A stretch of 64,000 nt of DNA from Amphiscolops sp. MND2022 (taxonomy: Eukaryota), in the NCBI GenBank assembly GCA_964187785.1, contig OZ076416.1, positions 28,520,001 to 28,584,000 on the forward strand, written 5' to 3'. Positions within the stretch are counted from its first letter, which is position 1; each line of letters opens with the position of its first letter. This document shows, piece by piece, positions 39,001 to 42,000 of the stretch. The position numbers were made by a program.

Positions 39001-42000
39001 TTTCCGTCAGACTATTCACTCATCGCGTATGTACCGCTCTTTGTACCAAAAGTACTCAGTACTTGATTTTGAACGCATCCAAAGGCCTCTACCTTCAAAT
39101 GCAAAACCCAGATGGGTCCCCCTTCCAATTTTTTGGCGCTATGAGACTTTCAACGCCCCTTTTTGGCTTTGTGAGACTTTTTTTCGAATTTTTTTTAAAG
39201 TCTTCAAAGGGTCCCCCTTCTATTTGTTTGGTGTTTTCCAACTGAATGGATGTTGAAAATGCCTAAATGGCCCCCTTTTACTTTTTTCGGTACTATGAGA
39301 CTGTTAAAAATTCTCGTTTTTCGTTTTTTTTATTGGAAATTTTAATTTTTTTTCGAAATTTTTCAATGTCTCCGAAGGGTCGCTCCTTCATTTATTTTGA
39401 TATTTTGCAACAAACTGGATTTCCAAAAACCCCAAGAGTCCCCTTCTACAATGTTAAAAACTTCGTGCTTTTTGAGCCTTGGATATGAGCCTTTAAACGT
39501 TCCCGTCTTGTTTTCTTTCTCATTAGTCGACATGACCTTCTACACGACATGACCTTGTAACTGCCACTTGGCCGTGGTGTAAAGTCGGATTACTGAGAGG
39601 GTCTGAGAAGCCTGCGTACTTGGGTTCGAGTCTCGCACTATGCCGAAATCTTCTATACTTCCAAAAGTAGAGGGGGGGCAAAGGGTCTCCTTTTTGATTT
39701 TTTTTTCCTGATTTAGGTGACTTGTTTCTGGATTTTCTGAATCCGAAAACCTCTCCCTCGGTTTTTAGCAGAAACAAAGTTTTGCGAGCATAAAGGGCCA
39801 CTGACGAATTTAATAATTGAATTTTTTTTCGAAGTTTCCCGCAATTTTTGGTTTTTTGATGTTTTCTGTAAAGGAAGTCGTTTTTCCGAGTCTTAAGAGT
39901 GGCCTCTTGGAATATTTTTTGATCCTGTGGATTTGATGGATTTTCCCAATGATTGTGAAAAAGACCTACGGCTGTTTCGGCACTGTGCAACTTTCGATGA
40001 AATTTTTAATTGATCAGAGTGTACCCCTCCACTTTAACCCTAAATGGACCGATTTTTGATGAATCCGGAAATTTCCTGGTCCATTTAGGGTTAATAAATG
40101 TTTTCGGCGAGCAAAAAGCATTTCAAAGCACTTTTTCCGTCACTATGAGATTTTTCCTAAGAATTTTTTAATATAAAAAGTATTGAAAAAAATGCAGTTC
40201 TTTAATGTTAGGTAGGGACAAGCGGTTTTTCAGTCTTAATGGAGCGAGGTCACCATAGTAGCGTGACGTTTTCACCGTGAGTTATGAGAAAATTATTCGT
40301 GATCAACTTCCATGCCTGACCAAACTCTATTCCAGGTGCTTTCTCTGGACTAGCAGACGCCAATGAAGGCGAAAGCTATTGCGTGGAAATCCACGAGTTT
40401 GGAGACATTTCCAATGGTGCTACATCTTGTGGGGATGTGTTCGTCACCAGTGATTGCCCCGGATCTCTGGGCACTTTCCAAACTCCAAAATCTTTTTCAA
40501 TCAAAAACTTGTCTCTGAACATTCCACATGTGCTTGGGCGGTCTTGTGTTGTCTTGAAGACTGGAAAGGTTTTAGCAGCTGGGATTATTGCCAGGTCCGC
40601 AGGGCTGCATCAGAACCCGAAAATGTTTTGCACCTGTGATGGTGTCAGTATTTTTGACGAGCAAAAACTCATCTAATTTAAATTGTAAATACTCTTCAAA
40701 GTCACATACTATGTAGTTTCTACAGAAATTTTAATTTTGCAGTCAACTTGTACTTCTTGTGTATTCATTGTGCGAGGCACTCTCTAAAAACGTCACGGTC
40801 TTCGAATGCGAGACAACTTGAGTGTTGCTACAAAATTCAGTGGTTTCAGATTTTTTGAAAATGTCCAAACTGCACTCCGTCGAATCAGAAGAGAGCTTGA
40901 AAAAACTCCTTTTTGGAAAAGATTTAGTATGCTTGCATGTTTTTGCAACCTGGGCTCCCGAGTGCGACGAATTAACGTCTGTTCTGGAGATAATAGCTGA
41001 CGAATATAAAGACGTGGTTTTTGCGAATGTCGAGGCCGAGAATGTTGAACAGTTTTGCCTCTCCAAACAAATTCAGTCAGTGCCGTCAGTTTTGTTTTAC
41101 AAATTTGGGGATCTTTACAGTCGTGTGGACGGGTTTGATGTCCCTCAGATCAAAGCGGAGTGCCGAAAGTTGTCTAACTTTGTGGGGCTCAGGCCAATGA
41201 CCAACATGAGCGGATCAGCAGGTAGTTGTAATTTTTTAACTGTCAATCAGCGCCTCAGTTTTCACACAAAATTTCTATTTGTGACTCATTTGACATTCAA
41301 AAAAAGTTGAGCGTGTTCCGTGGCTTCGTTTAGTCCGCCCTCAAGATGCACTTTTCAGAGCCTTGAAGATACTAATTGACGTCTTTTTGTAAGATGCGGT
41401 GATTTGAAATAGCCATGAAATGATCGGAAAATTTTTCATTTCAACGGATCGCCCTTTCCTTTCTACAAAAAATTCCTGTCTACATTATACTAAGAAGACT
41501 TCATGGTGTTCTGACTCTGCTTTCATCATTACCTCATTGTTCGTGGACACTCAGTTATTCTGTAACAACGCTGCGCAGTGAGAACTATGCAGCAGACACC
41601 GTTTCCGCGATGAGTGAAGCATATCAGATGTTAAGTGAATCGTCTCGTCTTTCGTTCCAAATTTTCAGCCAATCACCGGCAACCAAACTAACAGTGCTTT
41701 ACAATCAGAAATCAAGTGAACAATATCAGCATCCAAGTGAGTTAGCAAGTGAGAATTACCAACGACGCTTTCAAATTTAACAAACGCTGACCAAAGAATG
41801 CTACATGTACATGTACGCAAAATCGTATGCGGCGTTCGTTCATTCAAGCTACGATTTCGTTCATATTAAATGAGATTTGCTGTAGCAAGCTAATCAATTT
41901 CTATTGGTTGTTCATTTAATATCTGATGTGCTTCATTTAACGTGGAAACGGTGTAATAAGCGCCTAGCGATAGAGAATCAAGTACATGTACTACTGTAAA

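What the first reader, a model, noticed from the sequence alone, without database searches (positions are those of the whole stretch)
40676..40861. CCS and GLRX3 lie only 184 bp apart head-to-tail: a candidate metal-chaperone operon or read-through unit
Seen: CCS stop at 40676 and GLRX3 ATG at 40861 on the same strand. There is no AATAAA and no TE in the spacer, although introns and other intergenic regions here are kb-long and full of TEs. A TTTCAG acceptor lies 11 nt before the GLRX3 ATG. That acceptor is phase 1, so splicing from CCS exon 1 or 2 (both phase-1 donors) would give an in-frame HMA-(part SOD)-Trx-Grx-Grx chimera. Established: CCS delivers Cu to SOD1, GLRX3 is a cytosolic [2Fe-2S]/iron chaperone, and animal operons have ~100-400-bp spacers resolved by trans-splicing. 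Inference: co-transcription couples Cu and Fe-S homeostasis; the in-frame phase could be chance (1 in 3).
Basis: partly seen in the sequence, partly recalled or inferred. Interest (0 to 1): 0.65.

Follow-up and report, generated by a model that had tools for sequence, protein, structure and literature searches.

The report
Candidate two-gene operon in an acoel
Two intact housekeeping genes, a copper chaperone (CCS) and glutaredoxin-3, lie 184 bases apart on one strand of what looks like an acoel worm genome, so they may be co-transcribed, but only RNA data can show it.

Summary
The CCS stop ends at 40676 and the GLRX3 ATG is at 40861, leaving 184 nt. There is no AATAAA/ATTAAA on the + strand. 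TTTCAG at 40844-40849 lies 11 nt before the ATG, in a frame compatible with both phase-1 CCS donors.

- 84% of 184-nt windows here lack AWTAAA.
- The two GLRX3 introns are also repeat-free.
- An acceptor just before the ATG occurs at all 3 mapped gene starts (CCS, GLRX3, CD36-like), against 11 of 1046 ATGs overall. It is a habit of this genome, not an operon mark.

The nearest named relatives of the CD36-like gene are acoels. One acoel, Symsagittifera roscoffensis, is reported to SL-trans-splice 30.2% of its genes.

Best reading (about 0.5): a two-gene operon resolved by SL trans-splicing. Main rival (0.3): GLRX3 has its own promoter overlapping the CCS 3' end.

No CCS-GLRX3 fusion protein turned up, and functional Cu/Fe-S coupling is conjecture. 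My literature searches found no description of operons in acoels. Co-transcription and synteny could not be tested with these tools.

The parts
28545..28558 (+). Two tandem TTTCAG acceptor-like sites, with AG ends at 28550 and 28558. They lie 10 and 2 nt before the CCS ATG and are the likely SL trans-splice site(s) of CCS.
   Evidence: The 11-mer TTTCAGATTTT occurs only here and at 40844 in the window.
28561..28741 (+). CCS exon 1 (HMA domain, MTCGKC motif), with a phase-1 donor.
   Evidence: tblastn with P0001-P0007; sequence reading; Pfam HMA E 9.9e-05, 23.1 bits, below the 24.8 cut-off.
31776..31946 (+). CCS exon 2 (linker and start of the SOD-like domain), with a phase-1 donor.
36118..37598 (.). 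Decayed Tc1/mariner-type DNA transposon inside CCS intron 2. It has 124-nt inverted ends (91% complementary) and DDE_3 transposase in two frames on the - strand.
   Evidence: Pfam DDE_3; inverted repeats.
40336..40676 (+). CCS exon 3 (shortened SOD-like domain, C-terminal CTC motif), stop TAA at 40674-40676.
   Evidence: All 6 PDB hits are copper chaperone for SOD, best E 2.9e-13. Alignment A1.
40677..40860 (+). 184-nt spacer. It has no AWTAAA, no variant within one mismatch, no repeat, and ordinary CpG content. It carries two upstream ATGs (40711 and 40806). The 40806 one is out of frame and opens a 64-codon frame overlapping the GLRX3 start.
   Evidence: RNA fold z = +0.81.
40844..40849 (+). 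TTTCAG acceptor 11 nt before the GLRX3 ATG. It is the proposed SL trans-splice site, with cleavage after 40849.
40861..41221 (+). GLRX3 exon 1 (thioredoxin-like domain, WAPEC), with a phase-1 donor.
   Evidence: Pfam Thioredoxin E 4.1e-11. PDB best hits are Thioredoxin-like protein 2 / Glutaredoxin-3, E 2e-13. P0011 residues 1-120 align from 40861.
42054..42376 (+). GLRX3 exon 2 (first monothiol glutaredoxin domain, CGFS).
   Evidence: Pfam Glutaredoxin E 1.2e-18; PDB Glutaredoxin-3 E 3e-31; boundaries.
42989..43348 (+). GLRX3 exon 3 (second glutaredoxin domain with CKFS in place of CGFS), stop at 43346-43348.
   Evidence: Pfam E 4.1e-17; PDB Glutaredoxin-3 E 9.3e-37 with alignment.
53062..53076 (+). 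Comparison site: TTTCAG acceptor (AG end at 53067) 6 nt before the ATG (53074) of the isolated CD36/LIMP2-like gene.
   Evidence: tblastn with acoel proteins P0012 and P0015; sequence.

Best explanation
CCS (3 exons, 28561-40676) and GLRX3 (3 exons, 40861-43348) are two separate, intact genes in a genome that is most likely an acoel's. The GLRX3 mRNA most likely gets its 5' end by spliced-leader trans-splicing after 40849. That would remove the two upstream ATGs in the spacer. The 173 nt between the CCS stop and this acceptor leave little room for a 3' UTR, a cleavage site, a promoter and an outron, while every other gap in the window is kilobases long. So the most likely arrangement is a two-gene operon. 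Transcription starts upstream of CCS, the CCS message is cut and polyadenylated inside the spacer, and GLRX3 is released by SL addition.

Shown: gene identities, exon structure, spacing, the acceptor, and its recurrence at gene starts.
Inferred: the taxon, the use of the acceptor for SL addition, and co-transcription.

The pairing of a Cu chaperone with an Fe-S chaperone is probably incidental. From memory, genes in animal operons are mostly housekeeping and functionally unrelated.
For: - Same strand, 184 nt apart. Neighbouring gaps are 9,725 nt downstream and at least 16.5 kb upstream with no recognisable gene.
- TTTCAG ends within 11 nt of the ATG at 3 of 3 mapped + strand gene starts, against 11 of 1,046 ATGs in the window. 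The 11-mer TTTCAGATTTT occurs only at the CCS and GLRX3 sites (2 matches, 0.33 expected, 4 of 100 shuffles reach 2).
- All 6 upstream ATGs within 184 nt of the three starts lie 5' of the acceptors and none lies between acceptor and ATG. Out-of-frame ones overlap the CCS and GLRX3 starts.
- The best named relatives of the CD36-like exon are the acoels Convolutriloba macropyga (60%) and Symsagittifera roscoffensis (55%).
- S. roscoffensis is reported to have 10,433 of 34,493 genes SL trans-spliced, GC 36.7%, mean intron 2.5 kb and 61% repeats (PMC9911081, passages). The window has similar GC (31-43% per 2-kb block, mostly 36-41%) and long introns.
- The working operon criteria of other SL-using animals are met.
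- The next + strand AWTAAA after the CCS stop is at 41865, inside GLRX3 intron 1.
Against: - No RNA evidence of any kind.
- The acceptor motif also precedes CCS and the isolated CD36-like gene, so it says 'trans-spliced', not 'operonic'.
- The absence of AATAAA-type signals is not significant (84.2% and 26.7% of windows). A 400-nt run free of variants occurs in 7.5% of windows.
- If the lineage does need AAUAAA, the lack of one speaks against orderly 3' end formation in the spacer.
- SL trans-splicing is documented for one acoel species, not for the window's own species. That species' leader is not in the window, and Rfam finds nothing.
- Conservation of the linkage could not be examined.
- The S. 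roscoffensis paper does not use the words operon or polycistron in its main text (0 occurrences).
Confidence: 0.5

Rival explanations
1. Two independent transcription units packed tightly. GLRX3 has its own compact promoter in the spacer or within the last CCS exon or intron, and a short outron that is removed by SL trans-splicing at 40849. A 'hybrid operon' with an internal promoter falls under this rival too.
For: - The acceptor-before-ATG pattern is shared by genes that clearly stand alone here (CD36-like, CCS). So it needs no upstream cistron.
- The spacer holds a small cluster of 5 CpG-containing motifs at 40770-40815, including an ACGTCA-type core. Reading that core as a CRE/ATF-like half site is from memory.
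- Housekeeping promoters can be very short (from memory).
Against: - Only 173 nt are available for the CCS 3' UTR, its cleavage site, a promoter and an outron.
- CpG density in the spacer is ordinary (5 CpG, o/e 0.96, 31st-46th percentile).
- I saw no TATAAA in the spacer when reading it.
- Nothing else in the window is packed like this.
Confidence: 0.3
2. The TTTCAG at 40844-40849 is an ordinary cis acceptor of a GLRX3 5' UTR intron. A non-coding first exon lies upstream, inside or before CCS, so that the last CCS exon sits within the first GLRX3 intron.
For: - The site looks like the four cis acceptors of these two genes.
- Acceptors close to the ATG also arise from 5' UTR introns in animals without trans-splicing (from memory).
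Against: - Three of 3 starts have the acceptor within 11 nt of the ATG, and the nearest lineage has published SL trans-splicing. SL addition is therefore the simpler reading.
- No candidate upstream non-coding exon can be recognised.
Confidence: 0.1
3. A functional in-frame chimera. The CCS exon 1 or exon 2 donor is cis-spliced to the GLRX3 acceptor, giving an HMA-(part SOD)-Trx-Grx-Grx protein as a regular product.
For: Both CCS donors are phase 1 and end in G. The frame entered at 40850 is open to the GLRX3 ATG.
Against: - Frame compatibility has a 1-in-3 chance.
- Among the best 150 of 224 CCS-like representatives, only one has more than 100 residues after the CCS C-terminus. That one (P0050, 3000 aa) carries unrelated bacterial-type domains.
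- The 'longer' searches found CCS relatives of 244-269 aa and one GLRX3 relative of 231 aa, and no fusion.
- CCS exon 3 carries the conserved CxC tail that such a product would lack.
Confidence: 0.03

Closest known systems
SL-resolved operons of the flatworm Macrostomum lignano (PMC8629364, passages read)
   Same: - Same-strand gene pairs, mostly of two genes.
- The commonest repeat-adjusted intergenic distance is about 100 bp.
- The trans-splice acceptor motif is [T/C]TNCAG right at the exon start.
- About 30% of genes are trans-spliced, the same share as in the acoel S. roscoffensis.
- Conserved housekeeping genes are favoured.
   Different: - A different phylum.
- There the operons rest on SL-read and poly(A)-read mapping. 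Here there is sequence only.
Chaetognath operons (Paraspadella gotoi; PMC12460157, passages read)
   Same: - Working definition: two or more genes less than 250 bp apart, with SL evidence on at least one. The 184-nt gap would qualify as a candidate.
- No operon-specific leader is needed.
- Operon genes are broadly expressed metabolic or housekeeping genes.
   Different: - Only 1,470 of the 2,151 distance-based candidates there were validated by SL reads, so distance alone over-calls.
- That genome is compact, whereas this window is sparse.
Caenorhabditis elegans SL2-type operons (from memory)
   Same: - An intercistronic region of about 100-400 nt.
- A TTTCAG-type acceptor close to the downstream ATG.
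- The upstream gene is polyadenylated in the spacer.
   Different: - C. elegans upstream genes normally carry AAUAAA, followed by a U-rich element. The spacer here has no hexamer within one mismatch of AATAAA.
- No specialised second leader is known for acoels.
SL trans-splicing in the acoel Symsagittifera roscoffensis (PMC9911081 and its preprint, passages read)
   Same: - Nearest named lineage.
[quoted passage not shown]
- A repeat-rich genome of about 1 Gb with long introns and GC 36.7%.
   Different: - The paper reports trans-spliced genes but does not describe operons in its main text (0 occurrences of 'operon' or 'polycistron').
- Its leader sequence is absent from this window.
- The window's species is not that one (55% identity in a CD36-like exon).

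Membership tests
Metazoan operon resolved by SL trans-splicing | Neighbouring genes on one strand with a short intercistronic distance (less than 250 bp to about 1 kb in published criteria) | tested here: met
   184 nt on the same strand. Criteria.
Metazoan operon resolved by SL trans-splicing | The organism performs SL trans-splicing | tested here: inconclusive
   - The nearest named relatives are acoels, and one acoel has published SL trans-splicing.
- 3 of 3 gene starts have TTTCAG within 11 nt of the ATG, against 11 of 1,046 ATGs overall.
- No SL RNA gene in the window and no transcript data.
Metazoan operon resolved by SL trans-splicing | The downstream gene has a 3' splice acceptor just upstream of its start codon | tested here: met
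   TTTCAG at 40844-40849, similar to the four cis acceptors of the two genes.
Metazoan operon resolved by SL trans-splicing | A leader is actually added to the downstream mRNA | not testable with these tools
   Needs RNA-seq or cDNA of this species.
Metazoan operon resolved by SL trans-splicing | One promoter and a polycistronic precursor spanning both genes | not testable with these tools
   Needs nascent-RNA, long-read or RT-PCR data. CpG and composition give no promoter signal either way.
Metazoan operon resolved by SL trans-splicing | A 3'-end formation signal for the upstream gene inside the spacer | tested here: inconclusive
   No AATAAA and no one-mismatch variant in 40677-40860. But 26.7% of windows of this size lack them, and the signal used by this lineage is unknown to me.
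CCS (copper chaperone for superoxide dismutase) | N-terminal HMA domain with an MxCxxC motif | tested here: met
   MTCGKC in exon 1. Pfam HMA E 9.9e-05 but 23.1 bits, below the 24.8 cut-off.
CCS (copper chaperone for superoxide dismutase) | Central SOD1-like domain | tested here: met
   - All 6 PDB matches are CCS (best E 2.9e-13).
- Named CCS hits are at 33-41% identity.
- Pfam Sod_Cu scores only 17.1 bits, below the 28.9 cut-off.
- The domain is about 30 residues shorter than in the human chain.
CCS (copper chaperone for superoxide dismutase) | C-terminal CxC motif | tested here: met
   CTC in an invariant block (C98 and C100 of alignment A1).
GLRX3 / PICOT | N-terminal thioredoxin-like domain followed by monothiol glutaredoxin domain(s) | tested here: met
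   Pfam finds Thioredoxin plus two Glutaredoxin domains. The best PDB hits for all three exons are Glutaredoxin-3 / Thioredoxin-like protein 2.
GLRX3 / PICOT | CGFS active-site motif in the glutaredoxin domains | tested here: inconclusive
   The first domain has CGFS. The second has CKFS where the human chain has CGFS. The effect on cluster binding is unknown.
Read-through or fusion gene (CCS-GLRX3 chimera) | Compatible splice phases and an open frame across the junction | tested here: met
   Phase-1 donors at 28741 and 31946. The frame is open from 40822. This has a 1-in-3 chance.
Read-through or fusion gene (CCS-GLRX3 chimera) | Fused proteins or transcripts seen in this or related species | tested here: not met
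   None among the best 150 of 224 representatives, nor among the 10 and 1 hits of the 'longer' searches. The databases hold few acoel sequences, so this is weak.

The most novel reading that the evidence does not exclude
The pair is a true polycistronic unit in an acoel, which would make it the first operon described in Xenacoelomorpha. The CCS 3' end would be formed without any AAUAAA-like signal, coupled to SL trans-splicing of GLRX3 as in tunicates or trypanosomes. Occasional in-frame cis-splicing from CCS exons into the GLRX3 acceptor would be a by-product or a minor regulated isoform.
Probability: 0.2. Interest if true: 0.65.

Novelty: new member of a known kind. Interest (0 to 1): 0.4.

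Why it matters
SL trans-splicing and operons are scattered patchily across animals, and their origins are debated. Acoels sit at a disputed, possibly early-branching position among bilaterians. Trans-splicing has been reported for one acoel. My searches of the paper library found no description of operons in the group.

A verified CCS-GLRX3 operon would show that acoel trans-splicing also resolves polycistrons. It would also give a concrete locus for studying 3' end formation without a canonical signal. In addition, the acceptor-before-ATG pattern seen at 3 of 3 genes is a cheap way to flag trans-spliced genes when annotating such genomes.

If GLRX3 instead has its own promoter, the locus is just an unusually tight gene pair.

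Tried and rejected
- Poly(A) argument: absence of AWTAAA or near variants in the spacer is not significant.
- CpG island or promoter signal: window CpG o/e is 0.91 and the spacer is ordinary.
- RNA structure in the spacer: z = +0.81, and 162 of 200 shuffles fold at least as well.
- Known RNA families: 0 Rfam matches at gathering score in the whole window.
- The published S. roscoffensis leader: 0 matches with up to 3 mismatches.
- Fusion proteins: none found.
- Linkage in relatives: the only open contig collection holds bacteria and archaea. A scan with GLRX3 exon 1 gave 53 pattern matches and none was confirmed.
- Another gene close upstream of CCS: no convincing coding frame in 24000-28560.
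- Atlas search of the 995-aa frame gave only sub-0.9 scores.
- A bacterial-type promoter/terminator scan was not run because it does not apply to a eukaryote.
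Full report
**What is in the sequence.**
- The CCS stop TAA occupies 40674-40676 and the GLRX3 ATG starts at 40861, so the spacer 40677-40860 is 184 nt.
- TTTCAG lies at 40844-40849, with 11 nt between it and the ATG.
- No AATAAA or ATTAAA lies on the + strand between 40093 and 41865.
- The window holds one run of N (11882-12081), which I left alone.
- I do not take this contig for human.

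**Gene models.** I mapped and searched the models exon by exon. I did not make the joined (spliced) protein, so no result here rests on a full-length model.

CCS has three exons: 28561-28741, 31776-31946 and 40336-40676. This rests on tblastn with seven relatives and reading of the boundaries. Both donors are phase 1.
- Exon 1 carries MTCGKC. Pfam HMA scores E 9.9e-05, under the curated cut-off.
- Exon 3 matches only copper chaperones for SOD in the PDB: 6 of 6 hits, best E 2.9e-13. It keeps the C-terminal CTC.
- The SOD-like domain is shortened, and Pfam Sod_Cu stays under its cut-off.

GLRX3 has three exons: 40861-41221, 42054-42376 and 42989-43348.
- Pfam finds Thioredoxin (4.1e-11) and two Glutaredoxin domains (1.2e-18 and 4.1e-17).
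- The best PDB hits for each exon are Glutaredoxin-3 / Thioredoxin-like protein 2.
- An unnamed relative (P0011, 58% identical) starts at the same methionine.

**The in-frame claim.** The frame that is open from 40822 through the ATG is the one a phase-1 donor would enter at 40850. Both CCS donors end in G, the base that the acceptor's own G supplies in the genomic frame. So the arithmetic is right. By itself it has a 1-in-3 chance.

**Which arguments carry weight.**
- *The missing poly(A) signal does not.* Of 63,817 windows of 184 nt, 53,735 (84.2%) lack AWTAAA on the + strand. A further count shows 17,013 (26.7%) lack every hexamer within one mismatch of AATAAA. The variant-free run around the spacer (40500-40899) is matched by 7.5% of 400-nt windows.
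- *'No TE in the spacer' is true but weak.* Self-similar repeats cover none of it, but also none of the two GLRX3 introns. They cover 6% and 18% of the CCS introns, and 45% of the downstream intergenic region, where a 104-bp satellite is the main repeat.
- *The spacing is the real anomaly.* The next gene downstream, a CD36/LIMP2-like gene, starts 9,725 nt after the GLRX3 stop. I found no convincing gene in the 16.5 kb before CCS.
- *Scope of the Pfam scan.* One search covered 132 of the 170 stop-to-stop frames of 70 aa or more listed, and one search covered nine regions. The rest were antisense or overlapping frames of the 995-aa frame, the transposon and the two genes. They were not scanned.

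**The acceptor.** TTTCAG occurs 55 times on the + strand. Only 11 of 1,046 ATG triplets have one wholly within the 21 nt before them. Yet all three gene starts that I could map have one:
- CCS has two in tandem, ending 10 and 2 nt before the ATG.
- GLRX3 has one ending 11 nt before the ATG.
- The CD36-like gene has one ending 6 nt before the ATG.

The 11-mer TTTCAGATTTT occurs twice in the window, exactly at the CCS and GLRX3 sites. All six upstream ATGs within 184 nt of these starts lie 5' of the acceptors. They include out-of-frame ones that overlap the CCS and GLRX3 starts. This fits these stretches being removed from the mature mRNA.

This cuts both ways. The site before GLRX3 is very likely a used splice acceptor. 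But it is a general feature of genes here, including a gene that stands alone, so it is not a mark of a downstream operon gene.

**Whose genome.**
- CCS and GLRX3 have no close named relatives. The best CCS hit is 49% identical (unnamed), and named molluscs and echinoderms are at 35-41%. GLRX3 exon 1 found a single unnamed hit.
- The CD36-like exon found the acoels Convolutriloba macropyga (60%) and Symsagittifera roscoffensis (55%) as best named hits. The window is therefore most likely from an acoel or a close relative whose proteins are not in the database.
- In passages of the S. roscoffensis genome paper (PMC9911081; preprint) I read the following: 10,433 of 34,493 genes (30.2%) are SL trans-spliced, GC is 36.7%, mean intron length is 2.5 kb and repeats make up 61%. 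That resembles this window.
- That species' leader is not in the window, and Rfam finds nothing.

**Best explanation and rivals.** I think an SL-resolved two-gene operon is the most likely reading, at about 0.5.
- The pair would count as a candidate under the criteria used for a chaetognath: less than 250 bp. There, only 1,470 of 2,151 such candidates were backed by SL reads (PMC12460157, passages).
- It would also qualify under the Macrostomum criteria: a mode near 100 bp, a 1 kb threshold and an acceptor motif [T/C]TNCAG (PMC8629364, passages).
- In 173 nt one would otherwise have to fit a CCS 3' UTR, its cleavage site, a promoter and an outron.

The main rival, at about 0.3, is an internal or overlapping GLRX3 promoter. 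Composition gives no help here: CpG o/e is 0.91 window-wide and 0.96 in the spacer, and the spacer has no unusual fold (z = +0.81).

A cis 5' UTR intron with an exon further upstream is possible, at about 0.1.

In every one of these readings the GLRX3 transcribed or regulatory region overlaps the CCS 3' end. That is the one robust inference.

**The chimera and the functional claim.**
- I found no fused protein. Of 224 CCS-like representatives, I inspected the best 150. Only one has more than 100 residues after the CCS C-terminus, and it is an unrelated 3000-aa protein with bacterial-type domains.
- The 'longer' searches gave CCS relatives of 244-269 aa (9 of the 10 hits; the tenth is a 1,138-aa clathrin-adaptor protein at E 1.3e-4) and a GLRX3 relative of 231 aa.
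- Databases are thin for acoels, so this is weak negative evidence. I put a regular chimeric product at about 0.03.
- That co-transcription 'couples Cu and Fe-S homeostasis' is conjecture. From memory, genes in animal operons are mostly housekeeping genes without shared function, which both of these are.

**What is in print.**
- Searches for acoel with spliced leader, operon, polycistronic or intergenic distance terms, and for Hofstenia with trans-splicing, turned up the S. roscoffensis genome paper and its preprint as the only report of SL trans-splicing in acoels. None described operons in them.
- The main text of that paper has 0 occurrences of 'operon' or 'polycistron'.
- A search for GLRX3, CCS and operon terms gave nothing relevant.

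**What stayed unchecked.**
- Any transcript evidence.
- The CCS poly(A) site.
- A GLRX3 start site.
- Synteny in other acoels.

**Verdict.** This is a plausible new member of a known kind of system, in a phylum where that kind has not been described. The evidence is circumstantial.

Noticed in passing
window 28545-28558, 40844-40849, 53062-53067: All three mapped gene starts have TTTCAG ending 2-11 nt before the ATG, against 11 of 1,046 ATGs overall. This looks like a genome-wide signature of SL trans-splice sites and could help annotate this genome.
   Followed up: yes
window 42989-43348: The second glutaredoxin domain of GLRX3 has CKFS where the first domain and the human protein have CGFS. 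It is unclear whether this domain still binds a [2Fe-2S] cluster.
   Followed up: partly
window 31776-31946 and 40336-40676: The SOD-like domain of CCS is about 30 residues shorter than in solved CCS structures. With two unnamed relatives (P0001, P0018) it forms a subgroup that Pfam Sod_Cu does not recognise at its cut-off.
   Followed up: partly
window 44174-47793: A satellite of 104-bp units, 35 copies at 85% match, begins about 830 nt after the GLRX3 stop.
   Followed up: no
window 36118-37598: A decayed Tc1/mariner-type DNA transposon sits in CCS intron 2. It has 124-nt inverted ends and a DDE_3 transposase split over two frames.
   Followed up: partly
window 7920-10904 (- strand): An uninterrupted 995-codon frame with no Pfam family and only weak Atlas scores of 0.80 or less. 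It lies in a stretch of strongly skewed composition. It could be a gene, a large exon or a mobile-element remnant.
   Followed up: partly
window 53074-61981 (+ strand): A CD36/LIMP2-like gene of at least seven or eight exons. Its best named relatives are acoel proteins. ATTAAA lies 85 nt after its stop.
   Followed up: partly
whole window: AWTAAA is under-represented: 175 matches on both strands against 233.9 +/- 15.2 in shuffles, and all 100 shuffles had more.
   Followed up: no
window 15049-15444 (- strand): A weak reverse-transcriptase (RVT_1) remnant, E 7e-04 and below the Pfam cut-off.
   Followed up: no
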